From: Escherichia phage vB_EcoM_G17
Strand: one strand, 5' to 3'
DNA: 64,000 bases
Sequence record: MK327931.1
The translations under genes were made by a program, and so were the position numbers. The notes under the pieces are model-generated. The model searched no databases. It was not told where the DNA came from and was given only the letters and a program-made list of their open reading frames with translations. Positions 1 through 64,000 of this stretch are shown here, piece after piece (within the stretch, counting starts at the first letter, position 1; the number at the start of each line of letters is the position of its first letter).

Positions 1-292
1 ATACTATCAGTGTATGTGATTGTTTTTAGAAATGATTTTATATTTCTATTAAACCAATACCACTTTTTGTTTTTATTATAACAACTATACCATTTCTTCA
101 ATATATCAATTGCTTCAGAATTAATTTTTAAAGCAAATTCATCAATTAAAAACATATGATGGTAAAAAATATCACTTTGTTCTTCAGTTAAATTATATTG
201 CTGCATATTCACCTACCCTAGTAACAATGATTCCTTGGGTATTTAGCTCATATAGATCAAAATATGATCAATGGAAAATTGATATACAGCAA

Positions 293-322
293 TAAAAATA
301 GGAATCCCATGATAGGATTCCT
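293..322 (-). terminator. rho-independent terminator downstream of gene 333..779
   Basis: Inverted repeat AGGAATCC / GGATTCCT (300-307 / 315-322), 7-nt loop; T-run follows on minus strand (plus 293-299). Confidence 0.5.
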
Positions 323-332
323 TTTCACAATA

Positions 333-779
333 TTATTTTTGATATGGGGTGTACTGATATTTTTCACAATCAGAAACAGTTAGAACACCTTCATCATAAC
401 CATATTGAAGTACAAGGTCAAATGCTTTATCAACCATAGCAACAACATCTTTATAACGAACAATCTTATGAGATTGATTCTCAACTGCTTTCATAATCCC
501 CATTAGCAACCAGCGACCTTCATCGGTGTGTAATTTAGCAAAGCGTGGACGCTTTGTCGCTGCCATAATATCAGTCCATTCAGCTTTAAAAATGTGTGGA
601 CGTTTTGGAATATCATATAGTGTAGTAGGGAAAGTTACATTATTTTTCTTCATTGCTTCTGCTTGTGCTGCACGATAGCCCTGACGATATAATGGATGCT
701 GCATTTTTAGCTGTTCAGCACTTAGAACTACTTTTGCTTTGTATGCGTCATAACCATCTTTATATTGTGCATTGGACAT
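333..779 (-). CDS. hypothetical protein (148 aa)
   Basis: Uninterrupted minus-strand ORF, co-oriented and tightly packed with neighbours; no motif recognised. Confidence 0.55.
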   Translation of the reverse strand: MSNAQYKDGYDAYKAKVVLSAEQLKMQHPLYRQGYRAAQAEAMKKNNVTFPTTLYDIPKRPHIFKAEWTDIMAATKRPRFAKLHTDEGRWLLMGIMKAVENQSHKIVRYKDVVAMVDKAFDLVLQYGYDEGVLTVSDCEKYQYTPYQK

Positions 780-780
780 A

Positions 781-1098
781 TTATTCTTTTACCTCATCAG
801 TTTGAATGTATTTTTTGTCAGAGAATGTACCGTGTTCTTTACGCACAGCTTCTGCATGTTGAACCGCATCAACTGGATTAATGTTCTTTTTAATTAGTAC
901 TTCATTCATTAATTCAAGTACAATTGCAAAACCATTCAGCACACGCTCAGATTCATCTACATTTTTTAATTCAAGTGCTACTGCACTAATTTGATCGAAC
1001 GCAACATTAATAAAATCGGAATCTTCTAATACATTTGCTACTTCCGTATTATTACGTACTAGTACTTTCATATAATCTCCACAAAGATGATGCCCCAT
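781..1098 (-). CDS. hypothetical protein (105 aa)
   Basis: Minus-strand ORF ending 1 nt before the next gene start; no motif recognised. Confidence 0.5.
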   Translation of the reverse strand: MGHHLCGDYMKVLVRNNTEVANVLEDSDFINVAFDQISAVALELKNVDESERVLNGFAIVLELMNEVLIKKNINPVDAVQHAEAVRKEHGTFSDKKYIQTDEVKE

Positions 1099-1119
1099 AT
1101 TGAGGCATCAAAATCTATC

Positions 1120-1815
1120 TTACACCCACTCTTCTACACCACCGCGACGCTTAACTAAGTACTTGCCTTCTTCGTTACGTGGACCAAGAATAATACCATC
1201 AATGAAACCATGTTCACCATATTCAAGTGCTTCTTCTGCATTTAACCACAAATCGCGGTCAGCATCTTTTAGTAATTGTTCATGTGATACACCTACAGCT
1301 TCTGCAATTTCTTTGGTCAACAATGTATTCAGTGCATCAGAATGTTGTAGGGAAATCTTCTGGTCTGTAATTAGACCTTGTGTACCAGAACTTACTTGGT
1401 GACACATGAAGTATGAGCGTTTACCACCTAAACGGAAACCTTTAGTCCCAATAACAGATTGTGTATAGCAACCCATTGATGCTGCATAGCCCATTACTAC
1501 AGTGCGAATTGGCGAAATACAAGACTTAGCAACATCTGCAATACCCAAACCTGCGTGTACTGAACCACCCGGTGAACTAATGTAGAATGTAATAGGGGAA
1601 TCACCTTGTGAGTCTAACCATACCAATTGTTGTTTGATGATATGTGCCATTTGATCATTGAAATCAGTATCAAGGAAAATGATACGGTCTTGCATCATAC
1701 GAGATGCTAGATCATATGTACGTTCTGAACCATTAACTTTCTCAACTACGTAAGGAATAGAAATGTTACGTACTTCGCCATTAGCATAACCACCAAACAT
1801 GAATTGTTCAACCAT
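1120..1815 (-). CDS. clpP: ClpP-family serine protease homologue
   Basis: 231 aa; ClpP/S14-like core: 'ISSPGGSVHAGLGI' (GGS nucleophile region), 'MGYAASMGC', 'MCHQVSSG' (His region). Confidence 0.7.
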   Translation of the reverse strand: MVEQFMFGGYANGEVRNISIPYVVEKVNGSERTYDLASRMMQDRIIFLDTDFNDQMAHIIKQQLVWLDSQGDSPITFYISSPGGSVHAGLGIADVAKSCISPIRTVVMGYAASMGCYTQSVIGTKGFRLGGKRSYFMCHQVSSGTQGLITDQKISLQHSDALNTLLTKEIAEAVGVSHEQLLKDADRDLWLNAEEALEYGEHGFIDGIILGPRNEEGKYLVKRRGGVEEWV

Positions 1816-1879
1816 TATTAATTTCCTCTATTATTTCGTTGTTGTGAGTATTATATCACTAAGATTTAAAATGTCCAAA

Positions 1880-2320
1880 CTATTTTACTGGAATATTTGA
1901 AAAGAAATCAGTCATCCAATACGCCGTCTCTTTGTTGAATAATACTGGATCAAACTTAAGTAACTCAACATGACTTGTATCATACACGCTTGTATCGGTA
2001 ATGTCAAACAAAGTTTTAGTACTGAATAGTGGATTACTCACTAGAAAGTAGTAATCAGCAGTAGTGCTAATGTCATCATAAAACACACCGTCATACCATC
2101 CATCATCATATACATAAACAGAATCGTCATGAAGATAGTAAACTTCTATATGTAAACTCAAGTTCTTCATGGTTTCAATCATTTTTGCCGTATGAGGATT
2201 TAACTTATTGACATTTTCAAACACATAAGAGTGTTTTTTATTCATATCAACAAATGAAAATATTCGTACTGAACGTATATTCATATTACTCCAAATAAAC
2301 AAGTGAATTAATGAAATCAT
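1880..2320 (-). CDS. hypothetical protein (146 aa)
   Basis: Minus-strand ORF; no motif recognised. Confidence 0.5.
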   Translation of the reverse strand: MISLIHLFIWSNMNIRSVRIFSFVDMNKKHSYVFENVNKLNPHTAKMIETMKNLSLHIEVYYLHDDSVYVYDDGWYDGVFYDDISTTADYYFLVSNPLFSTKTLFDITDTSVYDTSHVELLKFDPVLFNKETAYWMTDFFSNIPVK

Positions 2321-2669
2321 ATTTCAATTTATCATCAACATAATTCAAATCAACTTTAATCATCGGAGCATGGGAACGTATAGACAGTGTTTCCATAAAG
2401 TACTGATTAAGTTTGTATGTATGGAAAAGATGAATATCTCGTTTCAATACCACCATTACTTCCCCGAACAGATCACAGAGTTCAACTTCAGTGTTAGTTG
2501 GGTCAAACCCATAACGATTCTTTAATGTACGTGGTTCTTTATTTCGATAATAATGCACAGCTTTATTACTATTCACTAACAAGTGATGATATGCATTACT
2601 ATAAACTGAGCAAATAACTCGGCTTGGATAATTGGTATATTCTGGCAGTTCAAAATAAATTAATGACAC
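2286..2669 (-). CDS. hypothetical protein (127 aa)
   Basis: Minus-strand ORF; overlaps the downstream gene by 35 nt, so start/stop context is uncertain. Confidence 0.45.
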   Translation of the reverse strand: MSLIYFELPEYTNYPSRVICSVYSNAYHHLLVNSNKAVHYYRNKEPRTLKNRYGFDPTNTEVELCDLFGEVMVVLKRDIHLFHTYKLNQYFMETLSIRSHAPMIKVDLNYVDDKLKYDFINSLVYLE

Positions 2670-2681
2670 AATATCCTCTCA

Positions 2682-3485
2682 TTAAATTTCAAATACAAAT
2701 TTAGGATTGTAATCAAAATTCTCACAAGCTCCACTGTATGATTCATAGCCTCGTGGATTACAAATGATACGTGTCTTACCAATGTGGTAGTCAAAACTAC
2801 TATGAACATGACCATGAATCCAAACATCAGCACCCAAATCTTCAATGTACTGATCCATATCGGAACAGTAACAACCATTCAGTGAATCATTTTTATATTT
2901 TGGTGAAACACTTTGATAACTTGGTGCGTGATGGGTAACCACGATGACCTTGAAATCATTATCATGCATAAAGCGAACTGTGTCAATAGAATTTTTGATA
3001 AATTGTTTATCTTTGTGATGCATAAACTCAGTATCATCTGGTGTCAGTTTCTTACGCCAAGGCTCTGATGTTGTTCCATGACGGATATGTTTGTAATCGT
3101 TCATCTTCAGACGAGCATCAAACTTCGTCAAAGAATTACCTTTATCGAAGTCTGTCCACAGAGTACTACCAACAAGCAGTACTCCGTCCAGCCATACAAA
3201 TTTGTTTTGCAAAAAGATGAAATTTGGAATCTCATCTTGCATATCGGACAGTACTTTATGCGTTTTGTGGATATTGGAACCATAATATTCATGATTGCCA
3301 GGAACCAGTACTACATTCTTAAACTGCTTACATAGTGATTCTATACCAGTACGGTAACGACTGCGTTTAACTTCATCGAAGTCCCCAGCAATAATCAGTA
3401 CTGTATCACTGTAATCACCACTATGGAGGTAATCAGTCCCACCGTGTACATCAGATGTTACAACAAATTTCATAATCACCTCCAA
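2682..3485 (-). CDS. calcineurin-like metallophosphoesterase
   Basis: Metallophosphatase motifs 'SDVHG', 'IAGDFDE', 'PGNHEYY', 'VVTHHAP', 'HGHVHSS'. Likely true start is the second Met (MKFVV, 3473). Confidence 0.7.
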   Translation of the reverse strand: MEVIMKFVVTSDVHGGTDYLHSGDYSDTVLIIAGDFDEVKRSRYRTGIESLCKQFKNVVLVPGNHEYYGSNIHKTHKVLSDMQDEIPNFIFLQNKFVWLDGVLLVGSTLWTDFDKGNSLTKFDARLKMNDYKHIRHGTTSEPWRKKLTPDDTEFMHHKDKQFIKNSIDTVRFMHDNDFKVIVVTHHAPSYQSVSPKYKNDSLNGCYCSDMDQYIEDLGADVWIHGHVHSSFDYHIGKTRIICNPRGYESYSGACENFDYNPKFVFEI

Positions 3486-3492
3486 TAAATGG

Positions 3493-4911
3493 TTAACCTA
3501 ATGCGTCAATAATACTGTTTGAGAACACTTCAACAGCACTCTCACGAATTTCTAAGATACGAGTATAATCATCACAAGTGTTTTTGTCAAATCTAAATTC
3601 AATAAACACTGGTAAGAACAGTGATGGCTCACCAGTACGCTTGTCGAATACAATGTCATTACACTCAACTGTAACCACTTTACCAATAAGTTCTTGCATT
3701 CTTTCCCAAATGGTTTTAAATGTCCATTCAGCATCTTTCTCTTTGATACCAGTACCCACATTAACTTTCAATGAACCACAAGCACTTTCCAGTTGTAAAG
3801 AACCTAGGCTTCCTTTACGTTTACCTTCACCTTCATTGAAACCAACAATACGTAAGTCCAGTTGCATTTTCAATTTCATTTTCAACTGCTTAGGTGAAGT
3901 ATGAGATTTCCAGATACCATCTTCACATTTCAGTACTGAACCCTCTTCACCTTCGTTCATTAGTTCACTATTGTACTCAAATGCTTCTTTGATGTTTAGA
4001 ACTTTACGGAATCCAACCATACGAACAAAATCACTATTGAGTTCGTTAATTGCATCTACTAAGATCTCGCGACGTTCTTTACGTTTTACATCCCATACAC
4101 CTTCACAAAATGCATCATATGGAACAACATCCCATAGAACGAATACAGTACGCATTGCTTCATTCTGACTGATGCTATCTTTACCAGCTTTCTGAATTAT
4201 ACCGTTGCCAGTAGTGCGTGGGAGAATGGTTTCTCCATCATTGTCCAGTACTACACCTTCCCCCATAAAGACTACACCACTACTAAAACGTTCATCTTTA
4301 CTTTGGATGATGTGAGCAAGACCTGCCATCTCACCATCACGACAACCCAGGAAGTCGTATAGTTTACCATTACGGGATGTAGAAGTTAATGAACCATTAA
4401 TGACAACGTGGTTTAAGTACTGACCATCCATTTTCACTTCTGATATAGCGTAACCATAATCTTTGAAGTTGATGTTCTTTGCAGTCTTTTTGTCAATCAA
4501 AGAACAACGCATATATGGTTCGTCTTTGATGAATCCTTTACCAAACACATCATTGCAGTTCTTCTCCTGAATACCACAATCAAGGTTCTTAGTGAGCATT
4601 CTACGTAGAACTTCCTGATCATCTTCAGATACAGAACCCAGTACTGAAGCAATGAAATCACGCCCCGCATTTCCTGTCACATCACGCTTGTAAATGCATT
4701 CTAGCTTATCAATTGCTTCATCTAACGTCATATGTTGATATACGTCATCAGCGGCAGGGAGCTTCTTATAGCCACTAACGATAGAAGGGTCTAGAGTATA
4801 TTTCAGTACTTTTTGTAAAGTTACATTATCTTTATTTTGTTCAAGAATAGCCTTTTTGCCCAGAGTACTGCTAGTATTTTTAATGCTTTCAAGAATTGCT
4901 AAAATGCTCAT
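3493..4911 (-). CDS. 30: ATP-dependent DNA ligase (T4 gp30-like)
   Basis: 472 aa; N-terminus 'ILAILESIKNTSSTLGKKAILEQNKDN' parallels T4 gp30 as recalled; adenylation motif 'KMDGQ'; 'EGVVLD'-type motif. Confidence 0.85.
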   Translation of the reverse strand: MSILAILESIKNTSSTLGKKAILEQNKDNVTLQKVLKYTLDPSIVSGYKKLPAADDVYQHMTLDEAIDKLECIYKRDVTGNAGRDFIASVLGSVSEDDQEVLRRMLTKNLDCGIQEKNCNDVFGKGFIKDEPYMRCSLIDKKTAKNINFKDYGYAISEVKMDGQYLNHVVINGSLTSTSRNGKLYDFLGCRDGEMAGLAHIIQSKDERFSSGVVFMGEGVVLDNDGETILPRTTGNGIIQKAGKDSISQNEAMRTVFVLWDVVPYDAFCEGVWDVKRKERREILVDAINELNSDFVRMVGFRKVLNIKEAFEYNSELMNEGEEGSVLKCEDGIWKSHTSPKQLKMKLKMQLDLRIVGFNEGEGKRKGSLGSLQLESACGSLKVNVGTGIKEKDAEWTFKTIWERMQELIGKVVTVECNDIVFDKRTGEPSLFLPVFIEFRFDKNTCDDYTRILEIRESAVEVFSNSIIDALG

Positions 4912-4922
4912 TGTATATTCCT

Positions 4923-6125
4923 TTATAGATAATACTTTCCAATATAAAGTGGATTACTAATTGATAGTTGAACGTGACATGGTTTGTCTTGGTAGTAACG
5001 AGTGCTTGATGTTTTGCGTTCATTTGGTGGGAAGAATGGGGAACGATAGCCATTCCATGTACTAAATGATGAGTGTTCATTAATATCAACATCCATTACC
5101 ATAATCCCATTATCATCAATTTGAACTGGATATGCACTAAAGCGTTCAAATTTATCATTATAATGGATATTATAATCTCCACTACGCCCATAATAACTAC
5201 GCGTTGTATTATTACTTACACCAAAAAATACGCGATATGTTTGTTCATTATCTTTAGTCATAAATGGTACGTTCTCGTTGAAACGTCCATTATTCATAAG
5301 ATCATCAACATTTATTTCTTCGTATTTAATTTTAAGGTCTTTTGCTTTAAATGATTTATTGTGTACCAGTACTGGAATGTTAGATTCACCTAATGGGTTA
5401 TGTCTGTTTGTTCTATAGCTTTGCCAAAATTCATTAGCAAGTTTAATTTCTTCATCTGCCGTAGTCTTCTTATTCAAGAGTGCACGAGGTTCAAGATTGT
5501 AATTATCCAAACGTTGATTCAATGCATAAGTTCCACGAGTACTGTTAAAAAGTAAATGATAAACTGAACTTTTGTCGGGATATGCAAATTCTTTAGTTTT
5601 CTTTATACAAATTGCATGTACTTTACCGCAGTAATAGTAATCTTCTTTAAGATAAGTGAAACCATCACCAACTTTAAGACCTGCTACAGTTTCTTTTTGT
5701 TGTTCTTTTTTATTTTCTTTTTCAACTAACTTAGCAAACGTTTTTGTTTTACCATTAATTAATTCTAAGTTATTGTTGAAAAACATTGGGTCTACAAAAA
5801 CACCTTTGATTATATCGTTATTGATAATTAAATCATTCATGTTTTTTGCACTAATCATAAATTCAAATCCTTCTGGGTGACGGATCGTGAAATATGTTTC
5901 TCGTGCATGAGTTGTTAATTTATCAACTACACAAAATCCCGTAGTTGGAACGTTGTCAATATATAACGATGGAAGATTGTTCTTCTTTGCCCAGTACTCT
6001 GCTCTCTCTTTCTTTGTTTCAAACGCTTTTGTATGTGATTTTGTTGCATCGATAATAAAACCATCAACTTGGTTGTGGTTTACATAGGAACGTGCAACAA
6101 ATAACTTCTCTGGAAAATCCATCAA
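4923..6125 (-). CDS. hypothetical protein (400 aa), immediately upstream of ligase
   Basis: Long minus-strand ORF; no catalytic motif recognised. Confidence 0.55.
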   Translation of the reverse strand: MMDFPEKLFVARSYVNHNQVDGFIIDATKSHTKAFETKKERAEYWAKKNNLPSLYIDNVPTTGFCVVDKLTTHARETYFTIRHPEGFEFMISAKNMNDLIINNDIIKGVFVDPMFFNNNLELINGKTKTFAKLVEKENKKEQQKETVAGLKVGDGFTYLKEDYYYCGKVHAICIKKTKEFAYPDKSSVYHLLFNSTRGTYALNQRLDNYNLEPRALLNKKTTADEEIKLANEFWQSYRTNRHNPLGESNIPVLVHNKSFKAKDLKIKYEEINVDDLMNNGRFNENVPFMTKDNEQTYRVFFGVSNNTTRSYYGRSGDYNIHYNDKFERFSAYPVQIDDNGIMVMDVDINEHSSFSTWNGYRSPFFPPNERKTSSTRYYQDKPCHVQLSISNPLYIGKYYL

Positions 6126-6759: not shown

Positions 6760-6769
6760 TTCTATTTCC

Positions 6770-7039: not shown

Positions 7040-7044
7040 AATTA

Positions 7045-58122: not shown

Positions 58123-58338
58123 TTACATTCTCTCATATATATTTTGGGTTAAAAGGTCAATCCAGATTTCCACATATCGTTGTTGGTGTTGCGTCCCTAA
58201 CAGTACACCCAACTTAGCTTCACACTCTAATAACAATCTGGTTTTGTATGGTAGACTTTGGAATCCTATAGTAGCATCTAATTTGGTAATTGCATAGTTG
58301 ATTCGGATGAATCTTTCTTGCAATGTGATGTTGTTCAT
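58123..58338 (-). CDS. LGTNYQE-family small protein
   Basis: 71 aa; 'VLLGTQHQQR'. Confidence 0.55.
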   Translation of the reverse strand: MNNITLQERFIRINYAITKLDATIGFQSLPYKTRLLLECEAKLGVLLGTQHQQRYVEIWIDLLTQNIYERM

Positions 58339-58625
58339 TTCTTAGTACACCTCAGTGGTTGGGTCATTTGATAAAAGTACAGCTTACCTTTGATTTCCAG
58401 TAGTAACTCCGCGATTAAGCGATTTACTTCTGTATCTTGATAGTTTGTTCCTAAGAATACACCCATCTTTAACTCACGCATCATAATCATTTTCTTACTG
58501 TGTTGAATTTCTGGGTTGTGATAGATTGTATTACGTTTGTGCGTAATTTTTGTCATACGCTCGGTATATTCATCTTTACTTAAATTGATCATTTGCATGT
58601 TCATCAACCTCACATTTATTTTCAA
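58335..58625 (-). CDS. LGTNYQE-family small protein
   Basis: 96 aa; 'VFLGTNYQDT'. Confidence 0.55.
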   Translation of the reverse strand: MKINVRLMNMQMINLSKDEYTERMTKITHKRNTIYHNPEIQHSKKMIMMRELKMGVFLGTNYQDTEVNRLIAELLLEIKGKLYFYQMTQPLRCTKK

Positions 58626-58627
58626 TA

Positions 58628-58894
58628 CTATTCTTTAGTTTGTAGATATAGTTTTCTTCCAATGTATCTCTTAAGTGCGATTATGTATTCATCTACATAA
58701 TACTCCTGATAGTTTGTTCCTATGAATGCACCCACCTTTAACTCAAGTTTCATAATCATCTTATTTCCGTGTTTAATGACTTCTCCGTGATGGATTTCAT
58801 TAAGTCCAGGTGCAATTTTCACCAGGCGTTCTTTATATTTTGCTTGAGATAATTTAATCATTTTCATGTTAATTACCCTTACATTTATTTTCAA
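58628..58894 (-). CDS. LGTNYQE-family small protein
   Basis: 88 aa; 'AFIGTNYQEY'. Confidence 0.55.
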   Translation of the reverse strand: MKINVRVINMKMIKLSQAKYKERLVKIAPGLNEIHHGEVIKHGNKMIMKLELKVGAFIGTNYQEYYVDEYIIALKRYIGRKLYLQTKE

Positions 58895-59099
58895 TACTAT
58901 TCATGAGTTCTATAAGATAGTTTTCTACCTTACCTTCCTGATAGTTAGTCCCTAGGAAGTTGCACAACACGGCTTCTATGATTTTGATTTTCCTGATATC
59001 AGGCTTCAATCTTTTGTTATTGAATATTTGAATCCTTATATCTCTGGATGCATTTAAACGTTTTTGATATTCATGGTAAGTTAAATGAATCATTTTCAT
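58869..59099 (-). CDS. LGTNYQE-family small protein
   Basis: 76 aa; 'NFLGTNYQEG'. Confidence 0.55.
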   Translation of the reverse strand: MKMIHLTYHEYQKRLNASRDIRIQIFNNKRLKPDIRKIKIIEAVLCNFLGTNYQEGKVENYLIELMNSIENKCKGN

Positions 59100-59314
59100 T
59101 TACGTTTAACCTCTCGCTGGAGGGCATCAATTAACATCAGTACAGCATTCTCTTGATAGTTTGTTCCTAAGACTGAAAGCATCTTTATCTCATTTACTAA
59201 AATCAACTTCTTTGAGGGTTCAATAATGTGACTATCATAAACGGCCTTACGTGCTGGATAAGTTTTCGCCAGTATAACATAAAATTCGTCTTTACTTAAA
59301 TTAATCATTTGCAT
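59096..59314 (-). CDS. LGTNYQE-family small protein
   Basis: 72 aa; 'SVLGTNYQEN'. Confidence 0.55.
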   Translation of the reverse strand: MQMINLSKDEFYVILAKTYPARKAVYDSHIIEPSKKLILVNEIKMLSVLGTNYQENAVLMLIDALQREVKRK

Positions 59315-59523
59315 TTACTTTTAACCTCTTTCTGTAGAGCGTCAATCCATAGATCTACATACATTTGTTGATAGTTTGTGCCTAAGAGTGCACCTACATA
59401 GAGTTCAGTTACTAGTGCGTGCTTAAGGTTAGCTTGGATGCTCTTATCGCTTGATATCATTCTCCTTCTGCTTCCACATGTTTTCAGGAGTCTGATGTAT
59501 TCAAAGCCTTGTAAATTTCTCAT
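59305..59523 (-). CDS. LGTNYQE-family small protein
   Basis: 72 aa; 'ALLGTNYQQM'. Confidence 0.55.
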   Translation of the reverse strand: MRNLQGFEYIRLLKTCGSRRRMISSDKSIQANLKHALVTELYVGALLGTNYQQMYVDLWIDALQKEVKSKCK

Positions 59524-59735
59524 ATTTTGGATACCACCTTGTTACGTAAGGAACTTAATAATACGTCAGTGTAGATGTTTTGATAGTTTGTCCCTACGAA
59601 TACACCCAACTTCATTTCAGCTATTATAACACATTTGTCCTCTTGTGCAATAGATTTGTTTAACACAATACTATACACTTTTGATTTGATAGTTTGTAAC
59701 CTCCAATGATACTGATACTCATTAAGGATTATCAT
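59520..59735 (-). CDS. LGTNYQE-family small protein
   Basis: 71 aa; 'VFVGTNYQNI'. Confidence 0.55.
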   Translation of the reverse strand: MIILNEYQYHWRLQTIKSKVYSIVLNKSIAQEDKCVIIAEMKLGVFVGTNYQNIYTDVLLSSLRNKVVSKI

Positions 59736-59982
59736 TCTCTTTCCTCCAGATTTCGGTTCTCATGTGTTGGCAGTGTGCATCAATATATTGCTCTATCGAT
59801 CTGGCGATTGCTGTTTTATCAGTGCCTGTCATCAGTACAAGCATCTCGGCCTCACAGTGAAGTAAACGCATGATATCATAGGGTAATATTTCAGATACCG
59901 TGTCATAGTGTTTCTGTGCCAGTGTCTGCAATAGTTTACAATACATTTTGTGATTTAGTCTTTGTCGCATTGTTTCTTCCAT
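59722..59982 (-). CDS. small protein, divergent LGTNYQE-family member
   Basis: 86 aa; 'LVLMTGTDKTAI' in the equivalent position. Confidence 0.45.
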   Translation of the reverse strand: MEETMRQRLNHKMYCKLLQTLAQKHYDTVSEILPYDIMRLLHCEAEMLVLMTGTDKTAIARSIEQYIDAHCQHMRTEIWRKENDNP

Positions 59983-60227
59983 TCTCTTCTGGCTTGGCGG
60001 GTTTTATCTGATATTTCGTTTCTCAATGCAGAGATATATCGTAGAGTGAACAGTTCTTGATAGTTAGTCCCTATGAATTTATTAAGATATACATCAGCGT
60101 TGACGATATCAGCTTCACGGGAATTATAAAGTTTATTGTTAGTGCGAAGGGTGTTTAGAAGAGAGAAGAGGGCAGTCTGATACTCAGTGCTTGATAAAGT
60201 TTTCATATTTTTCCACAATTCGTTCAT
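59955..60227 (-). CDS. LGTNYQE-family small protein
   Basis: 90 aa; 'KFIGTNYQEL'. Confidence 0.55.
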   Translation of the reverse strand: MNELWKNMKTLSSTEYQTALFSLLNTLRTNNKLYNSREADIVNADVYLNKFIGTNYQELFTLRYISALRNEISDKTRQARREWKKQCDKD

Positions 60228-60441
60228 TTAGTTTTATCTGTATAAGATCCATTAGTTGTTCAAGATAATCGGTACAATATTTCTCTTGATATTGGGTTCC
60301 CACAAAGTACAGCAACCATAGCTCATGAACTTTAACTTTCATCTCGTTCCATGAAAGTGCATCGTCATCGTAGATTACTCTTGCTTCTGGGGTGAGCTTT
60401 CGAATTCTAAGTGAATATTCATCGTCCGTCAAGTGTTTCAT
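60184..60441 (-). CDS. LGTNYQE-family small protein
   Basis: 85 aa; 'YFVGTQYQEK'. Confidence 0.55.
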   Translation of the reverse strand: MKHLTDDEYSLRIRKLTPEARVIYDDDALSWNEMKVKVHELWLLYFVGTQYQEKYCTDYLEQLMDLIQIKLNERIVEKYENFIKH

Positions 60442-60596
60442 TTACATTTATCCCTTATTAGATTTGTGAGTGCAACTATGTGTTCATGGATATAAAAATT
60501 TTGATGAGAAGTTCCAAGAAAGTACAGCATCCATCCCTCACTCTGCTCGACTTCTAGTTTAGTATCGAGTTGGTCAGATATGTTAATGAAAACCAT
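60438..60596 (-). CDS. LGTNYQE-family small protein (52 aa, below track cutoff)
   Basis: My translation: 'MVFINISDQLDTKLEVEQSEGWMLYFLGTSHQNFYIHEHIVALTNLIRDKCK'; fills the 60.44-60.60 kb gap; ATGA / TAATG overlaps with neighbours. Confidence 0.4.
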   Translation of the reverse strand: MVFINISDQLDTKLEVEQSEGWMLYFLGTSHQNFYIHEHIVALTNLIRDKCK

Positions 60597-60853
60597 TAGT
60601 TCTTTTCCTTTCTTTCTATTTGTTTCATAAGAACATCGATATACTCACCCGCAAACCTATTCTGATACTGCGTCCCCATGAATTCCAACATCCATACTTC
60701 AGCAACCTTTTCTTCAATTTCAGTCCATTGTAAGTACATCATAGTGAAGTAAATGGTGTTCTCTTTTTTTCTGGCACTCTTAGCACGGGCCTCGTATTCA
60801 AAGTTATTAATGATGTTCATTACATTTGTCCATAATGTAATTCTTGAGTGCAA
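60596..60853 (-). CDS. LGTNYQE-family small protein
   Basis: 85 aa; 'EFMGTQYQNR'; start may be internal. Confidence 0.5.
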   Translation of the reverse strand: MHSRITLWTNVMNIINNFEYEARAKSARKKENTIYFTMMYLQWTEIEEKVAEVWMLEFMGTQYQNRFAGEYIDVLMKQIERKEKN

Positions 60854-61034
60854 CTATGTGTGCAATAACATACTCTTCCTGGAAGTTCGTCCCCAGTACA
60901 GCCAACATGCGTACATCGGTGGTGTTTATCTTGTGTTCCAATCGAGTTAAACCTTTTATTTGTAAAAGGGTATCGTATTTGTTTAATGCATCAATGATAA
61001 TTCTCATCTTCTCAATATTACTTAAATGTTTCAT
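60807..61034 (-). CDS. LGTNYQE-family small protein
   Basis: 75 aa; 'AVLGTNFQEE'. Confidence 0.55.
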   Translation of the reverse strand: MKHLSNIEKMRIIIDALNKYDTLLQIKGLTRLEHKINTTDVRMLAVLGTNFQEEYVIAHIVALKNYIMDKCNEHH

Positions 61035-61243
61035 AGTTTACTCTTAATGTAGTTCTGAAGTTCAATTAAGTATTTCCCTACATAATACTCCTGAAAGTCT
61101 GTATCCAAAAATGCACCCAAAAGTAAATCCTTCTCCATTGCCCTTGATAAGTTAAGGTCTGCATTTGAAAGGTATATAAGTAATATTTCAGTCTGGACAG
61201 AATTAAAACGTTTCTTATATTCTTCAGGTGTTAATATAATCAT
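61031..61243 (-). CDS. LGTNYQE-family small protein
   Basis: 70 aa; 'LNLSRAMEKDLLLGAFLDTDFQEYY'. Confidence 0.55.
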   Translation of the reverse strand: MIILTPEEYKKRFNSVQTEILLIYLSNADLNLSRAMEKDLLLGAFLDTDFQEYYVGKYLIELQNYIKSKL

Positions 61244-61455
61244 AATTTGCTCCTGATGTATTTCTCAAGAGATGACAAATACTTTTCCTCATAATACTCC
61301 TGATAGTCTGTTCCCAAGAATGCACCCATAAGTATTTCATTTTCCAATACCTCGGCTAAGTTTAAATCAGACGTCTCTTCGTATATTATGAGGATTTCAA
61401 GTTGTCTGGCAGCGATGCGTTCAGTATATTGATATGAGTTTTCTATAATAATCAT
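61240..61455 (-). CDS. LGTNYQE-family small protein
   Basis: 71 aa; 'LNLAEVLENEILMGAFLGTDYQEYY' (close to the preceding copy). Confidence 0.55.
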   Translation of the reverse strand: MIIIENSYQYTERIAARQLEILIIYEETSDLNLAEVLENEILMGAFLGTDYQEYYEEKYLSSLEKYIRSKL

Positions 61456-61661
61456 ATTTTACTCTTAATATCTTCTATTAAAAATCGAATCCATTCTTCA
61501 ACATAATCTTCCTGATGGTTTGTGTTCAGTACAGCCAACATGCGGATCTCTGCTCTTGCAACTTCAATTTCAGTTTTAGGCAGGTCTTTGCTGATATCCA
61601 CCATTAAGTCCATGTATTTCAAGATAAGACCGTATGATTGGGTTCGTGTTATAGTTTTCAT
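61452..61661 (-). CDS. LGTNYQE-family small protein
   Basis: 69 aa; 'AVLNTNHQED'. Confidence 0.55.
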   Translation of the reverse strand: MKTITRTQSYGLILKYMDLMVDISKDLPKTEIEVARAEIRMLAVLNTNHQEDYVEEWIRFLIEDIKSKI

Positions 61662-61858
61662 TGTTTCCTCGTGGACAATATTTTATTTTTCAATGTATCC
61701 ATATATTGCCACACCCATCTACCCTGATAGTTTGTTCCCAATGTAATCAAAAGGTATAACTCCATTCGTTCTACGTGTGTGTCTGTGTTGTAAATCTTTA
61801 CGTAGTTTTTACGTAACAGTGATTGATATTCTTCTTTATTTAAAATACGCATTTTCAT
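61658..61858 (-). CDS. LGTNYQE-family small protein
   Basis: 66 aa; 'ITLGTNYQGR'. Confidence 0.55.
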   Translation of the reverse strand: MKMRILNKEEYQSLLRKNYVKIYNTDTHVERMELYLLITLGTNYQGRWVWQYMDTLKNKILSTRKQ

Positions 61859-62082
61859 AGTTTACTCGTTATATCTTCAATTAAATACCAAATCCAATCG
61901 TTGACATACCTTTCCTGAAAGTTAGTTCCAATGAATAGTGCCATAATTAATTCACGCTTATAGGCAATACCACGGTCATGGGACTTATACATTATCATAG
62001 CCATGTTATTGATAAGTCTTTCGTGGTGCTGTTCTTTAGTTAAAATACGCATAGGGACTCCCTTAAAATTAATATCAATCAT
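61855..62082 (-). CDS. LGTNYQE-family small protein, first gene of the array
   Basis: 'LFIGTNFQER'; probable start is Met 'MRILTKEQ' at 62052, preceded by RBS AAGGGAG. Confidence 0.5.
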   Translation of the reverse strand: MIDINFKGVPMRILTKEQHHERLINNMAMIMYKSHDRGIAYKRELIMALFIGTNFQERYVNDWIWYLIEDITSKL

Positions 62083-62110
62083 ATTTTATACGATTCATAT
62101 AAAAAGTCAA
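62083..62110 (-). promoter_or_regulatory. candidate sigma70-type promoter heading the LGTNYQE-family array
   Basis: Minus strand: TTGACT (plus 62105-62110) - 16 nt - TAAAAT (plus 62083-62088), ~25 nt upstream of RBS/ATG at 62052. Confidence 0.4.
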
Positions 62111-62203
62111 TAACATTTTATTCGTAATACCCCTTTATCGAAGTCGCTAAGGTTACCCGCCCTTTAGCCCCCTACGCATTTTGCCATAGTCCAATCCCTT
62201 TTA

Positions 62204-62268
62204 TTTCAAAAAAGTCAAGGGATTACCTATGCATTTTTTTAACGCATAATTTTAAAAACGCCTTGACT
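62204..62268. repeat. 13-bp perfect inverted repeat flanking a 38-bp A/T-rich core
   Basis: AAAAAAGTCAAGG (62204-62216) and CCTTGACTTTTTT (62256-62268); nearby triple 'ACGCATT' motif. Possible operator upstream of the array promoter. Confidence 0.4.
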
Positions 62269-62301
62269 TTTTTCTGAATCAGTACTAGATCCCTTTACGC
62301 A

Positions 62302-62511
62302 TTAATCCTTCGTTACGCTAACGATTATCTGTGTATCCCCGTAGTCCTGCCATACTTCCACGCCATCGGTCGCCCTGGTTAGTCGTGCTGTCATCTGCTT
62401 AATGGTCTTAGGCTTTAGTGGAACCTGTTGCAGTACTGTACGCATAGCATCATTGACGTTATCATGTACGCCTGCAATAGTACCTAGAACGCTGTATACT
62501 GTATAGAACAT
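62302..62511 (-). CDS. small hypothetical protein (69 aa)
   Basis: Minus-strand ORF in a locally G+C-richer segment. Confidence 0.45.
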   Translation of the reverse strand: MFYTVYSVLGTIAGVHDNVNDAMRTVLQQVPLKPKTIKQMTARLTRATDGVEVWQDYGDTQIIVSVTKD

Positions 62512-62579
62512 ATGTATGCCCTCCTGATATAGTTAAGGCCGCTACAAGGCGGCCTATGATGTTTGGTGATGTGTAACGC

Positions 62580-62981
62580 TTACAGTCCTAAGATAGTGCG
62601 TGCTTCGTTACGTTCCGTACACAGCTGCATGATGTGAGCAAGTAAGTCCTTGCTAATGTATCCGGTGTTCATAGCTTCACGAATAGATACATCATACGCA
62701 CCGAACCCCGTGCGAACGATACGCACATCATTCAGGTTAGTATTATAGATACCGCCGAGATCAACGGCTTCGAATACTACATCAACAGAATATTCATTGT
62801 TGCCATCGTGGAAGTTTTCCAGTGCAATAGTATTGGATACCGCCCAACGTTTGCAGTTTCCAATGATGCGGCACTGTTCCGGTTGGATAGTACCATTACT
62901 TACAGCGTACTCCAGTGCATCTTTACCAAAAGTCCGAGCCAGTACTAAAACGTCAGCGAAGGAATTGATTGAGAAGGTCAT
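62580..62981 (-). CDS. hypothetical protein (133 aa)
   Basis: Track ORF extends to 63014; RBS AAGGAG sits 8 nt upstream of the internal Met 'MTFSINS' (62981), so that is the likely start. Confidence 0.55.
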   Translation of the reverse strand: MTFSINSFADVLVLARTFGKDALEYAVSNGTIQPEQCRIIGNCKRWAVSNTIALENFHDGNNEYSVDVVFEAVDLGGIYNTNLNDVRIVRTGFGAYDVSIREAMNTGYISKDLLAHIMQLCTERNEARTILGL

Positions 62982-63000
62982 GATAAAACTCCTTAATTTA

Positions 63001-63063
63001 GGAGGGAGAACCATTTCCCCCTCTCTATGTAAAACATTATACTTGATTCTAAGTACTATGCAA
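63001..63063 (-). promoter_or_regulatory. sigma70-type promoter plus conserved leader hairpin (copy 1)
   Basis: Minus strand: TTGCAT (plus 63058-63063) - 16 nt - TATAAT (plus 63036-63041), then conserved 'GTTTTACATAGAG', then hairpin AGGGGG/CUCCCU (plus 63003-63022), then RBS and ATG at 62981. Confidence 0.55.
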
Positions 63064-63070
63064 GTACTTT

Positions 63071-63403
63071 TTACATTTTAATACCTGGATTCAGGTAGCG
63101 GTGAGATCCATATTCTGGATCGGTTTCGGTCCAGTACTGTAAATCGATAGTACCTTTCGCGTTAATCTTGTCTACCAGCTTATTCATCTTAGTGTATACT
63201 ACGTCAGCATCGATGCGTTTAAAGCCAGTAGCTTTAGTGAAGTAGTAGTGATTTGCTTCACTATCATTAAGGATATACCGAGCACCGTTTGCAGTCTGTG
63301 CGATAATGATTGAGTATTCTACTTCCCGATCCAGACCGTCGATGAATACAGATGAAACATTGGTACGGATGAAAGCTTTAACGATAGCGATTGAAGTACT
63401 CAT
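63071..63403 (-). CDS. hypothetical protein (110 aa)
   Basis: Minus-strand ORF; higher local G+C than the paralogue arrays. Confidence 0.55.
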   Translation of the reverse strand: MSTSIAIVKAFIRTNVSSVFIDGLDREVEYSIIIAQTANGARYILNDSEANHYYFTKATGFKRIDADVVYTKMNKLVDKINAKGTIDLQYWTETDPEYGSHRYLNPGIKM

Positions 63404-63649
63404 TTTGAATCTCCTAACTTTGTGGGCCGTCGCACCATTGCCGCCCTACGAGATACATTATTGCAGTACTGATATACTTTGTCAATACTTTTTTTATTAA
63501 TAGTTTTCACCCCACCAGCAGATAGTTACTCACCGTTATTAACTATATATTTTAGATACACTCCTGCACCCAGTGGGCTAGTTTTTGTCTATGCGTATAT
63601 AATAGCAAAGGGACTGACCGGAGTCAATCCCTTTTTTTATTCTTTTTTG

Positions 63650-63850
63650 TTAGATGATTCTCCAATCTTCTACGATCATGGTAAGATAACGGACCATCGA
63701 TTCAAGTGATTCGAATTCCCGATAGTCTGCCGCTCCACCAGCGGTACAAGTACAGCCGATTAAACCATTTTGTAATTCCTTAATCTGTACATCGATAAGG
63801 TTGGCTTTAGCTTCTTTCAGTACTTCAACCAGGGCGATAGCGATAGACAT
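63650..63850 (-). CDS. small hypothetical protein (66 aa)
   Basis: Minus-strand ORF immediately downstream of promoter/leader copy 2. Confidence 0.5.
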   Translation of the reverse strand: MSIAIALVEVLKEAKANLIDVQIKELQNGLIGCTCTAGGAADYREFESLESMVRYLTMIVEDWRII

Positions 63851-63871
63851 AATGTTTTACTCCAAACTATT

Positions 63872-63933
63872 GACGGGAGAACTATTCCCCCGCTCTATGT
63901 AAAACATTATACATTACTGGTTAGTACTGTCAA
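63872..63933 (-). promoter_or_regulatory. sigma70-type promoter plus conserved leader hairpin (copy 2)
   Basis: Minus strand: TTGACA (plus 63928-63933) - 16 nt - TATAAT (plus 63906-63911), same 20-nt 'GTATAATGTTTTACATAGAG' block, hairpin CGGGGG/CUCCCG (plus 63874-63892) with compensatory closing pair versus copy 1. Confidence 0.6.
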
Positions 63934-64000
63934 ATAGTTTTATGAAATATCTTCGATGTAGTCGGCCCATTTCATTTTTTCAGTACTGTCAATGGCTACC

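What the first reader, a model, noticed from the sequence alone, without database searches (positions are those of the whole stretch)
1..64000. Palindromic hexamer AGTACT is strongly over-represented across the window
By eye AGTACT, often within (T/C)CAGTACTG(A), occurs roughly 3-5 times per kb wherever I tallied: 6 copies in 19.44-20.80 kb, 5 in 56.2-56.9 kb, 4 in 3.1-3.4 kb, 3 in 40.7-41.1 kb. From base composition I would expect about 0.3-0.4 per kb, so the excess is about ten-fold. Copies fall in all three codon phases (for example 'TCA GTA CTG' = SVL in the ligase, 'AGT ACT' = ST in the FQxS motif, 'CAG TAC T' = QY), so this is DNA-level selection rather than a protein-motif by-product. 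It does, however, frequently underlie the conserved F-Q-x-S-T codons. Phages usually deplete palindromic restriction-type sites, so enrichment implies a positive function: a binding or modification site, a recombination hotspot driving paralogue expansion, or a packaging/replication signal. The window encodes an orphan NPPY adenine methyltransferase of unknown specificity.
Basis: seen in the sequence. Interest (0 to 1): 0.85.

Follow-up and report, generated by a model that had tools for sequence, protein, structure and literature searches.

The report
Iterated AGTACT palindrome in jumbo phages
A 6-letter DNA palindrome, AGTACT, is the commonest 6-letter word in this giant E. coli phage and its relatives, although the genome has lost almost every other such palindrome. 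It sits inside early promoters and is strictly excluded from two operons, so it looks like a deliberate, undescribed signal written on the phage chromosome.

Summary
The window is Escherichia phage Sharanji (Asteriusvirus, 350 kb). AGTACT occurs 190 times, making it the top hexamer. Nulls give 21 (base composition), 17±4 (dinucleotide shuffles), 51±6 (synonymous-codon shuffles) and 24±5 (codon-order shuffles). Copies fall in all three codon phases.

Genome-wide there are 903 copies against 119 expected, with a graded palindromic consensus ttCAGTACTGaa. The same enrichment (8-14x) holds in RaK2, GAP32, fHe-Yen9-04, XaC1 and Hallingskeid, but not in the outgroup PA5oct. Meanwhile GCGC and at least 22 palindromic hexamers have zero copies.

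The motif is not window-wide. Two operons beside the 20.7-kb terminal repeat have none. These are window 46748-54463 and 56909-62280. They carry one-base variants instead (coding-strand AGTACA, then TGTACT). This layout is conserved in relatives.

In the terminal repeat (6.4 sites/kb), 27 of 38 strong sigma70-type early promoters carry AGTACT at fixed positions.

My best reading (confidence about 0.4) is a recognition site for a clade-encoded dimeric DNA-binding or DNA-modifying factor. That factor would mark phage DNA and gate early promoters. The conserved Dam-family methyltransferase is a candidate writer, but its specificity is untested.

The parts
1..46747 (.). AGTACT-rich domain 'A' (161 copies, 3.4/kb). 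It covers small early/middle genes, DNA ligase, RNA ligase, ClpP and the methyltransferase cassette.
   Evidence: in-gene 152 copies, against 40±5 after synonymous shuffling and 19±4 after codon-order shuffling.
46748..54463 (-). Domain 'B': an operon of about 18 unrelated small genes with zero AGTACT. On the coding strand, GTAC is followed by A in 59 of 68 cases and never by T. Coding-strand AGTACA (TGTACT on the + strand) is itself iterated: 41 copies, in all three phases.
   Evidence: AGTACA 39 in genes, against 13.8±2.9 after synonymous shuffling and 4.9±2.1 after codon-order shuffling. The same pattern is seen in 121Q, Ecwhy_1 and fEgEco12.
54464..56908 (-). Domain 'C': a short block of about 10 small genes between B and D with the highest coding density of AGTACT (17 copies, 7/kb).
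   Evidence: 16 in genes, against 5.1 after synonymous shuffling and 1.5 after codon-order shuffling.
56909..62280 (-). Domain 'D': 22 tandem paralogues of about 70 aa (l-GTnYQ family) with zero AGTACT. The opposite one-base variant is found here: coding-strand TGTACT, 11 copies. Seven of the 11 lie at one homologous position.
62150..64000 (-). Inner end of the 20,668-bp direct terminal repeat (record 15,778-36,445). It holds pre-early genes and AGTACT at 6.4/kb.
   Evidence: mapped by homology to the experimentally confirmed termini of fEgEco12; the inferred length equals the published 20,668 bp.
63906..63933 (-). Consensus sigma70-type early promoter (TTGACA-16-TATAAT, 12/12). AGTACT (63923-63928) overlaps the last base of the -35 hexamer.
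63457..63485 (-). Early promoter (TTGACA-17-AATAAT) with AGTACT (63465-63470) in the spacer, two bases from the -10 hexamer.
54962..54990 (-). Promoter-like site inside C (TTGACA-17-TATAGT). AGTACT (54980-54985) overlaps the -35 hexamer.
62083..62110 (-). Promoter-like site at the terminal-repeat/D boundary (TTGACT-16-TAAAAT) with no AGTACT. It is the presumed start of operon D.
57180..57208 (-). Promoter-like site in the D/C intergenic gap (TTGACA-17-TATAGT). It is the presumed start of operon C.
54234..54261 (-). Promoter-like site in the C/B intergenic gap (TTCACA-16-TATTAT). It is the presumed start of operon B.
21685..22206 (-). gp542, an orphan Dam-family N6-adenine methyltransferase (NPPY at residue 73). 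It is a candidate 'writer'; its specificity is unknown.
22223..22768 (-). gp543 (phrog_16210), a clade-restricted protein of about 175 aa that always lies immediately upstream of the methyltransferase. Its function is unknown.
21155..21688 (-). gp541, a cytidylyltransferase-like protein and third member of the conserved cassette. It is probably unrelated to the motif.

Best explanation
AGTACT (graded consensus ttCAGTACTGaa) is a double-strand DNA recognition site read as a palindrome by a dimeric factor encoded by this jumbo-phage clade.

Shown: selection keeps about one site per 400 bp over the whole chromosome, in every reading frame and at the expense of amino-acid choice. A sample of the E. 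coli host has about 0.06 sites per kb. The densest and best-positioned sites lie in the terminal repeat. There they abut or overlap the -35 hexamer and abut the -10 hexamer of the strong sigma70-type pre-early promoters, and when both are present they lie 20 bp apart, on the same face of the helix.

Inferred mechanism: once the factor accumulates, or once the methylation state of its site changes after replication, it occupies these operator-like positions and switches pre-early transcription. The hundreds of intragenic sites make the phage chromosome a phage-specific binding platform, that is, a self mark or chromosome organiser.

Two operons next to the terminal repeat (B and D) are kept free of full sites. 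They carry one-base 'half-dead' versions, so they escape whatever the full site imposes.

The conserved Dam-family methyltransferase gp542 may be the enzyme that writes on the site, in a GATC/Dam/SeqA-like arrangement. That would also explain why this one palindrome is exempt from the genome-wide purge. This step is not shown.
For: 1. Palindromic reading. Flank preferences are symmetric even though the two strands differ strongly in composition: C at -1 in 47% of sites and G at +1 in 44%. Taking the two half-sites together, G before the core is only 8%. CAGTACTG occurs 199 times against 3.4 expected, and TCAGTACTGA 47 times against 0.37. Every extension from GTA to CAGTACTGA exceeds its maximal-order Markov expectation, as for a graded binding matrix.

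2. Selection on sites. 158 of 177 sites are conserved between Sharanji and fEgEco12, against 62% of all hexamers; per-base identity is about 97% in the motif and about 93% in the flanks. Across genera, at 49% protein identity, 8 of 30 sites sit at the same aligned position (chance 0.16), and density is maintained.

3. Even coverage. The spacing CV is 0.89, and fewer genes lack a site than Poisson predicts (16 against 25.9).

4. Promoter architecture. 27 of 38 strong promoters in the terminal repeat carry AGTACT. In 18 it is at -7/-8 from the -10 hexamer, in 11 at -27, and in 5 at both, 20 bp apart. A spacing of 20-21 bp is the commonest short inter-site distance.

5. A clade-encoded reader rather than a host factor. 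The same motif is enriched 8-14x in phages of Escherichia, Klebsiella, Cronobacter, Yersinia, Erwinia and Xanthomonas, and not in the outgroup PA5oct.

6. Operon-scale exclusion conserved in four Asteriusvirus genomes, and in weaker form in an Erwinia phage. The variant sites keep the C...G flanks.

7. The cassette gp543 / Dam methyltransferase / cytidylyltransferase is present in every AGTACT-rich genus examined. No gp543 homologue was found in any Pseudomonas phage record.
Against: No binding protein has been identified. The one positional candidate, gp543, has no family, sequence or fold match, and its model is poor (pLDDT 59).

About 750 operator-type sites inside genes is unusual for a transcription factor, so the chromosome-wide role is inferred only from distribution.

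Promoter-embedded sites could be inherited through duplication of promoter cassettes rather than selected individually.

The methyltransferase link is phylogenetic co-occurrence with effectively a single origin.

In B, the avoidance extends to the strand-specific pentamer GTACT on the coding strand, whatever base precedes it. A purely symmetric dimer model does not predict this.
Confidence: 0.4

Rival explanations
1. Methylation target only. AGTACT is simply the recognition site of the phage's orphan adenine methyltransferase. Because it is always protected, it is the one palindrome that need not be purged. Methylated sites are then positively useful in themselves, for example as protection or an epigenetic self mark, with no separate binding protein.
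For: An orphan Dam-family enzyme is conserved in all AGTACT-rich genera. All other GC-containing palindromes are purged. The precedent is cyanobacterial HIP1, whose abundance tracks orphan methyltransferases that recognise its core (abstract of PMC4390886).
Against: Exemption from purging explains tolerance, not a 7.6-fold excess or site conservation. Preferences for flanking bases beyond the hexamer are not expected for a Type II-like enzyme. GGTACC and CGTACG are absent, so GTAC as such is not protected. The family's characterised members methylate GATC (my own knowledge), and GATC is under-represented here at 0.57. The model offers no reason for exclusion from B and D.
Confidence: 0.22
2. 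Polar signal of the Chi or primase type. The working unit is a strand-specific (C)AGTAC word read by a translocating phage enzyme, such as a helicase-nuclease, primase or motor. The palindrome supplies the word on both strands wherever the direction of travel is not fixed. B and D carry it on one strand only.
For: The motif shows extreme over-representation with fairly even spacing, as for Chi. In B the word lies only on the coding strand (44 against 0) and in D mostly on the other strand (11 against 1), diverging from C. The phage also accumulates host Chi sites: 29 against about 2 expected, 9 of them co-oriented in the terminal repeat.
Against: The bulk of sites are true palindromes with symmetric flanks. 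The positions in promoters are fixed. D's orientation rests largely on one inherited position in a paralogue family. No origin-like feature was found in C. Elsewhere the orientation of half-sites simply follows the coding strand.
Confidence: 0.12
3. Mutational or gene-conversion drive. A biased repair system keeps converting near-matches into AGTACT, with no function for the sites themselves. The model here is very-short-patch repair coupled to a methyltransferase.
For: This has been proposed for other hyper-abundant methylase-linked palindromes (PMC4390886). Sites turn over at deep divergence: 22 of 30 are not positionally shared between genera.
Against: One-off variants are not depleted. AGTATT counts 40 against 40.6 expected and AATACT 62 against 47, while TGTACT and AGTACA are themselves in excess. 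Sites evolve about two-fold more slowly than their flanks. A drive cannot produce operon-scale absence with a single oriented substitute.
Confidence: 0.08
4. RNA-level signal. AGUACU in phage transcripts is a site for an endoribonuclease or RNA-binding protein, in the manner of RegB. Transcripts of B and D are made resistant.
For: There is roughly one site per gene. A palindrome reads the same in RNA whichever strand is transcribed. In B the coding-strand pentamer GTACT is avoided whatever base precedes it.
Against: Symmetric C/G flanks are a double-strand DNA signature. Many sites lie upstream of transcription starts, inside promoters. No RegB-like gene was looked for or found.
Confidence: 0.06
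5. Compositional or paralogy artefact. The excess follows from codon preference (AGT, ACT, GTA, TAC), phage tRNAs and repeated gene families.
For: AGT, ACT and GTA are among the preferred codons. The phage encodes tRNA-Ser(ACT) and tRNA-Thr(TGT).
Against: The observed count exceeds synonymous-codon, codon-order and dinucleotide nulls by 3.4-, 7.3- and 11-fold. Sites occur in all three phases and in non-coding DNA. 83 of 99 genes carry a site. Codon preference is more likely a consequence of the motif.
Confidence: 0.02

Closest known systems
HIP1 (GCGATCGC), the highly iterated palindrome of cyanobacteria
   Same: Both are short palindromes over-represented by an order of magnitude or more. Both occur inside genes in all frames, are conserved beyond neutral expectation, approach one per gene and are fairly evenly spaced. 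Both co-occur with orphan methyltransferases, and in both the function is unresolved (abstracts of PMC4390886 and PMC5861425).
   Different: The sequence differs. The carrier is a virus, not a cell. The genome is otherwise purged of palindromes. The motif is built into early promoters. It is excluded from two defined operons that carry an oriented one-base variant. The methyltransferase specificity is unknown here.
GATC / Dam / SeqA-MutH system of E. coli
   Same: Both involve a palindromic site with a Dam-family enzyme. In both, site clusters lie in regulatory DNA, and pairs on the same helical face are read by a protein. This comparison rests on established knowledge, not on a test made here.
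   Different: GATC is not strongly over-represented genome-wide. No SeqA- or MutH-like reader was identified in the phage. Whether gp542 acts on AGTACT is untested.
Nucleoid-occlusion sites (SlmA SBS GTGAGTACTCAC; Noc NBS)
   Same: These are palindromic sites for a dimeric protein, scattered over a chromosome but absent from one domain. The SBS core is AGTACT (PMC3020112).
   Different: The SlmA determinants G1, T2 and purine-3 are not enriched. The phage has 0 matches to GTRAGYRCTYAC, and G before the core is the least favoured base. The motif is also kept in a Xanthomonas phage.
Chi (GCTGGTGG) and other over-represented polar motifs (KOPS, uptake sequences)
   Same: These are the most over-represented oligomers of their genomes. 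They are spread through coding DNA and maintained by selection for a DNA-processing machine.
   Different: They are asymmetric and strand-biased, whereas AGTACT is a symmetric palindrome. Only its variants in B and D are oriented.
Genome-coating phage proteins that also repress early promoters (phi29 p6; SPO1 TF1 in the terminal redundancy)
   Same: In both cases a phage-encoded DNA-binding protein is proposed to act chromosome-wide and at early promoters in a terminal repeat. This analogy is from my own knowledge.
   Different: Those proteins recognise DNA shape or a modified base, not a discrete iterated hexamer. No such protein has been identified here.
T5 first-step-transfer region lacking EcoRI sites
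   Same: Both show domain-restricted absence of a palindromic site next to a long terminal repeat. This analogy is from my own knowledge.
   Different: In T5 the site-free DNA is the first to enter the cell and the site is merely tolerated elsewhere. Here the first-entering repeat is the richest in sites, and the site-free operons lie just inside it.

Membership tests
Highly iterated palindrome (HIP-type element) | A short palindrome at least 10-fold commoner than composition or codon usage predicts, genome-wide | tested here: met
   903 copies against 119 expected genome-wide, the top hexamer. Window count 190, against 17-51 under four null models.
Highly iterated palindrome (HIP-type element) | Occurs within genes in all reading frames | tested here: met
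   Phase counts are 77/40/60.
Highly iterated palindrome (HIP-type element) | Sites conserved more than surrounding sequence | tested here: met
   89% of sites conserved, against 62% of all hexamers. 8 of 30 positions are shared across genera, against 0.16 by chance.
Highly iterated palindrome (HIP-type element) | Cognate orphan methyltransferase recognising the core | not testable with these tools
   An orphan Dam-family enzyme is present and conserved across the clade, but its specificity is unknown.
Target of a ScaI-type (AGTACT) restriction-modification system | A restriction endonuclease gene paired with the methyltransferase | tested here: inconclusive
   The conserved neighbour gp543 has no nuclease family, PDB sequence or fold match, but the model is weak.
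Target of a ScaI-type (AGTACT) restriction-modification system | The site is avoided or neutral in the carrier genome | tested here: not met
   The site is 7.6-fold enriched while other palindromes are purged.
SlmA-binding sequence (SBS) | G, T and a purine at positions 1-3 flanking the AGTACT-like core (PMC3020112) | tested here: not met
   There are 0 matches to GTRAGYRCTYAC, and G at -1 occurs in only 8% of half-sites.
Chi-like polar recombination signal | Asymmetric sequence with strand or orientation bias | tested here: not met
   The core and its flanks are symmetric. Only the B and D variants are oriented.
Operator within sigma70 promoters | Fixed position overlapping or abutting the -35 or -10 elements in a set of promoters | tested here: met
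   27 of 38 terminal-repeat promoters carry the motif, at offsets -7/-8 and -27.
Operator within sigma70 promoters | A cognate repressor or activator that binds the site | not testable with these tools
   No candidate was identified.
Packaging (pac/cos) or replication-origin repeat | Clustered at one locus near the termini or origin | tested here: not met
   Sites are spread over all 350 kb. No iterons or origin-like features were found in C.

The most novel reading that the evidence does not exclude
The Rak2-like jumbo phages lack a phage nucleus. They may carry a two-word sequence code that separates self from host. AGTACT would be written about 900 times on the phage and is nearly absent from E. 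coli (0.06/kb in a sample). A clade-specific writer/reader pair would use it: the Dam-family methyltransferase plus an unknown binding protein. This pair would organise or shield the chromosome and time pre-early promoters. GCGC is absent from the phage and occurs at 6.8/kb in the host; it would mark DNA to be destroyed. Operons B and D, which keep only oriented half-sites, would be deliberately left outside the system.
Probability: 0.2. Interest if true: 0.9.

Novelty: new variant of a known kind. Interest (0 to 1): 0.8.

Why it matters
Phages are textbook cases of palindrome avoidance, and this lineage takes avoidance to an extreme. Yet it makes one palindrome its commonest word, and it has done so across at least seven host genera. 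That implies an unrecognised sequence-reading system conserved in a whole group of 350-kb phages whose genes are about 80% uncharacterised.

If the site is a self mark or operator, it gives a direct experimental handle on three questions:
- how nucleus-less jumbo phages regulate their pre-early genes;
- how they tell their DNA from the host's;
- how they organise a very large chromosome.

It would also be the first viral counterpart of the long-unexplained cyanobacterial HIP1 element. Unlike HIP1, it comes with built-in natural controls, namely two operons with one-base 'dead' sites, which make function testable.

There are practical consequences too. ScaI-type digestion or methylome profiling could type these therapeutic-candidate phages. 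Engineering them will need to respect the motif.

Tried and rejected
1. Codon-usage, dinucleotide and paralogue artefacts were rejected by four null models and by the gene-by-gene spread of sites.

2. An assembly or base-calling artefact behind the site-free domains was rejected. The same layout occurs in 121Q, Ecwhy_1 and fEgEco12 (77-93% identity), and in weaker form in an Erwinia phage.

3. Titration of host SlmA, whose site has an AGTACT core, was rejected because the flanking determinants are absent.

4. Very-short-patch-type conversion was rejected because the expected donor variants are not depleted.

5. A replication origin in C was not supported. No iterons, AT-rich block or skew switch was found, and D's orientation is partly inherited by paralogy.

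6. gp543, the conserved neighbour of the methyltransferase, was tested as a nuclease or reader and led nowhere. It gave no hit in Pfam, NCBIfam or PDB sequence searches, its PHROG family has no known function, the AlphaFold model has pLDDT 59, and no Foldseek match passed E<=0.001.

7. gp548, called a 'methyltransferase' in the Sharanji paper, has no methyltransferase domain in Pfam or NCBIfam.

8. Domain B proteins gave no Pfam hits.

9. An IMG/VR scan with gp542 returned only the 121Q copy.

10. Literature searches for AGTACT, CAGTACTG, ScaI, methylomes or transcriptomes of these phages found nothing relevant.

11. The 8.3-kb terminal repeat reported for UE-S1 was not followed up.

Full report
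**Identity of the window**

The window is Escherichia phage Sharanji (OR545507.1, genus Asteriusvirus, of the 121Q/PBECO4/RaK2-like jumbo phages, 350,079 bp). Window 1-46449 equals record 303631-350079. Window 46373-64000 equals record 1-17628. The record's two ends overlap by 77 bp, so the junction is an assembly join and not a physical end. All 154 annotated genes in the window lie on the minus strand.

**Check of the observation**

AGTACT occurs 190 times and is the most frequent hexamer in the window. Four null models were compared:
- Base composition gives 21.4.
- Dinucleotide-preserving shuffles give 17.2±3.6, with a largest value of 26.
- Shuffling synonymous codons within each gene, keeping every protein sequence, gives 51.4±6.0 against 177 observed inside genes.
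- Shuffling codon order gives 24.2±4.5.

Sites fall in all three phases (77/40/60), and 13 are non-coding. The motif shapes the proteins rather than the reverse. ST and VL dipeptides are 1.85- and 1.63-fold in excess, while TS and LV are at expectation. Of the 139 ST dipeptides, 77 are spelled AGTACT.

**Anatomy of the motif**

Genome-wide there are 903 copies against 119 expected. It is again the top hexamer; the next is TTCTTT with 633.

The flanks are symmetric. C precedes 47% of sites and G follows 44%. Taking the two half-sites together, G before the core is only 8%. Longer palindromic forms are also in excess:
- CAGTACTG occurs 199 times against 3.4 expected.
- TCAGTACTGA occurs 47 times against 0.37 expected.
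- TTCAGTACTGAA is the fullest form.

Each one-base extension from GTA outward exceeds its maximal-order Markov expectation, so the signal is graded like a binding matrix rather than an all-or-none hexamer.

Outside the terminal repeat, spacing is slightly more even than random (CV 0.89). Fewer genes lack a site than Poisson predicts (16 against 25.9). Sites are not concentrated at gene ends.

**Genomic context: an extreme purge of other palindromes**

In the 350-kb genome GCGC has 0 copies against 292 expected. At least 22 palindromic hexamers have none; examples are GGTACC, CGTACG, GGATCC, CTGCAG, GAGCTC, CTCGAG, GTCGAC, CCATGG, GCATGC and GCTAGC. GATC, CTAG, TCGA, GGCC and CCGG are at 0.4-0.6 of expectation. 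AGTACT is the only strongly enriched palindrome, at 7.6x; the next is GTGCAC at 2.3x.

A 50-kb sample of E. coli K-12 shows the reverse. AGTACT occurs 3 times (0.06/kb) and GCGC 342 times (6.8/kb).

**A clade-wide trait**

Samples of 20-30 kb from related phages show the same picture, and GCGC is 0 in every one:

| Phage | Host genus | AGTACT enrichment |
|---|---|---|
| RaK2 | Klebsiella | 8.4x |
| GAP32 | Cronobacter | 8.5x |
| fHe-Yen9-04 | Yersinia | 11.6x |
| XaC1 | Xanthomonas | 10.9x |
| Hallingskeid | Erwinia | 13.6x |

The more distant Pseudomonas phage PA5oct has 1 AGTACT against 8.4 expected and a normal GCGC count.

**Selection on sites**

Against fEgEco12 (88.7% nucleotide identity), 158 of 177 aligned AGTACT sites are conserved, compared with 62% of all hexamers. 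AGTACT and the hexamers overlapping it top the conservation ranking. Per-base identity is about 97% inside the motif and about 93% in the flanks.

Against Hallingskeid orthologues (49% amino-acid identity), 8 of 30 sites lie at the same aligned position, against 0.16 expected by chance. The rest have turned over, while density is kept at 3.1 and 4.4 per kb. So both individual sites and overall density are under selection.

**Domain structure (new)**

Only two large gaps exist in the whole genome. They are record 370-8092 (window 46748-54463, 'B') and record 10531-15909 (window 56909-62280, 'D'). The next largest gap is 2.1 kb. Between them lies 'C' (window 54464-56908), with 17 copies in 2.4 kb.

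B is not just unenriched. GTAC is still 3-fold in excess there. On the coding strand it is followed by A in 59 of 68 cases and never by T. Coding-strand AGTACA occurs 41 times in all three phases. In genes it counts 39, against 13.8±2.9 after synonymous shuffling and 4.9±2.1 after codon-order shuffling. The C...G flanks are retained. B's 18 genes are not detectably paralogous to each other or to domain A, so these sites are independent.

The same rule holds in three relatives. Coding-strand GTAC is followed by A in 57 of 62 cases in 121Q, 71 of 81 in Ecwhy_1 and 76 of 88 in fEgEco12. It is followed by T in 0, 0 and 1 cases, even though B is only 77% identical in Ecwhy_1.

D carries the opposite variant, coding-strand TGTACT, 11 times against 2.4±1.4 expected. 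However, 7 of the 11 lie at one homologous position of 22 tandem paralogues of about 70 aa. D's orientation is therefore weaker evidence.

A weaker version of the B-then-D layout is present in the Erwinia phage. Elsewhere in the genome these variants run at about 0.6/kb, and their orientation follows the coding strand.

Each of D, C and B begins at an intergenic gap holding a sigma70-like promoter. These are at window 62110-62083, 57208-57180 and 54261-54234. Exclusion therefore works at the scale of an operon.

**Relation to the physical genome ends**

The Sharanji paper reports a 20,668-bp direct terminal repeat without coordinates (PMC11895373). fEgEco12 has termini confirmed by PhageTerm and restriction digests, with a repeat at 1-20,993 (PMC13070987). 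Homology places the Sharanji repeat at record about 15,778-36,445, which is exactly 20,668 bp. Its inner end is therefore at about window 62,150.

In gene-sense order the virion DNA reads: terminal repeat, D, C, B, then domain A (window 46.7 kb down to 1). In fEgEco12 the last AGTACT of the repeat is at 20,857, and the site-free D begins at the repeat boundary.

**Sites inside early promoters**

The repeat has 132 sites, or 6.4/kb, about 20x expectation. On its gene-sense strand there are 38 strong sigma70-type promoters (at least 10 of 12 consensus matches), and 27 of them contain AGTACT at fixed offsets:
- 18 have it immediately upstream of the -10 hexamer, as AGTACTgTATAAT.
- 11 have it overlapping the first T of the -35 hexamer, as aAAGTACTTGCAA.
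- 5 have both, 20 bp apart.
- A few have it overlapping the end of the -35 hexamer, as TTGACAGTACT.

A spacing of 20-21 bp is the commonest short distance between sites. Examples in the window are 63906-63933, 63457-63485 and 54962-54990. The first promoters of D, C and B lack the motif.

**Candidate machinery**

gp542 (window 21685-22206, minus strand) is a Dam-family N6-adenine methyltransferase. It matches PF05869 at E 7e-32 and TIGR01712 at 91.5 bits, just under the 97-bit cut-off. It has NPPY at residue 73 and no solved homologue.

Across all seven genera examined it sits in a conserved three-gene cassette:
- gp543-like protein (about 175 aa, phrog_16210, 28-42% identity between genera), immediately upstream;
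- the Dam-family methyltransferase;
- a cytidylyltransferase-like protein.

gp543 homologues occur in 69 phage records, all of this clade and none from Pseudomonas. gp543 itself gave no family, sequence or fold match. Its AlphaFold model has pLDDT 59 and shows beta-hairpin repeats followed by C-terminal helices. The specificity of gp542 cannot be inferred from sequence.

**Interpretation**

The evidence has four parts:
- symmetric, graded flanks;
- conservation of individual sites;
- fixed, helically phased positions in early promoters;
- a clade-wide distribution that is independent of the host.

These are best explained by a palindromic double-strand DNA site read by a phage-encoded dimeric factor. 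That factor would gate pre-early promoters. Through about 750 further sites it would mark or organise the whole chromosome. B and D would be kept outside the system by one-base 'dead' sites. I put this at about 0.4.

A methylation-only reading (0.22) explains exemption from the purge. It does not explain the excess, the flank preferences or the excluded operons. The two readings could combine in a GATC/Dam/SeqA-like scheme.

A Chi- or primase-like polar signal (0.12) is suggested by the oriented variants in B and D and by the phage's accumulation of host Chi sites. It conflicts with the palindromic symmetry and with the promoter placement.

A mutational drive (0.08), an RNA-level signal (0.06) and a compositional artefact (0.02) fit poorly, as set out under the rival explanations.

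One observation is explained by none of the models. In B, the coding-strand pentamer GTACT is avoided whatever base precedes it.

**Comparison with known systems and novelty**

The closest known phenomenon is cyanobacterial HIP1. AGTACT here meets the descriptive criteria of a highly iterated palindrome. It differs in four ways:
- the sequence and the carrier;
- its coexistence with extreme palindrome purging;
- its integration into promoters;
- its operon-scale exclusion with an oriented substitute.

It is not an SlmA site, not a localised pac or origin repeat, and not a classical restriction target.

I found no mention of the motif in the papers on Sharanji, CBB, fEgEco12 or UE-S1, or in full-text searches. 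I rate it a new variant of a known kind, of high interest.

Noticed in passing
Whole Sharanji genome (includes window 1-64000); also L013, L016, L017, L018, L020: GCGC has 0 copies in 350 kb against 292 expected, and at least 22 palindromic hexamers have none. GCGC is also 0 in samples of five other genera of the clade. It is normal in the outgroup PA5oct and reaches 6.8/kb in an E. coli sample. A total, clade-wide absence may point to a phage-encoded GCGC-directed nuclease rather than host restriction alone.
   Followed up: partly
Record 17,140-35,853 (terminal repeat; its inner end is at about window 62,150-64,000): The host Chi octamer is about 15-fold enriched: 19 CCACCAGC plus 10 GCTGGTGG, against about 2 expected. 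Nine co-oriented copies lie in the terminal repeat, and a single opposite-strand copy lies about 590 bp from the left physical end.
   Followed up: partly
Window 56909-62280: Twenty-two tandem paralogues of about 70 aa share an 'l-GTnYQ' motif and sit directly inside the terminal-repeat boundary. Several keep TGTACT at one position while encoding different residues there (M-Y-F, A-V-L, G-V-L).
   Followed up: partly
Window 46372-46449: The GenBank record's two ends overlap by 77 bp and lie inside a gene-dense region. The deposited ends are therefore an assembly join. The physical ends, inferred from fEgEco12, are at record about 36,445 and 15,778.
   Followed up: yes
Window 22769-22843 (minus strand): The annotated start of gp543 adds 25 hydrophobic N-terminal residues that no orthologue has. 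The true start is probably the Met at window 22768.
   Followed up: partly
L003 45470-45561 and 43711-43784 (record 95,470-95,561 and 93,711-93,784), outside the window: The phage encodes a tRNA-Ser annotated with anticodon ACT (which reads AGT) and a tRNA-Thr with anticodon TGT (which reads ACA). These match the codons that the motif and its B-variant force into frequent use.
   Followed up: no
Only 3 of the 7 members spell ST as AGTACT.
   Followed up: yes
Window 25480-26328 (minus strand): gp548 is called a methyltransferase in the Sharanji paper, but it has no methyltransferase domain in Pfam or NCBIfam. Its only match is phrog_27741, of unknown function.
   Followed up: partly
Window 45000-64000: Composition changes between the neighbouring operons. 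B has GC skew about -0.2 and AT skew about 0. D has GC skew about 0 and AT skew about -0.2. GC content rises to about 0.40-0.44 on entering the terminal repeat.
   Followed up: no
ON568341.1 (phage UE-S1), not fetched: UE-S1 is reported to have an 8,298-bp terminal repeat, derived from a Nextera library. Relatives have repeats of about 20.7 kb, and the fEgEco12 authors doubt the UE-S1 value. I did not check whether uneven read coverage around AGTACT-free DNA misled PhageTerm.
   Followed up: no
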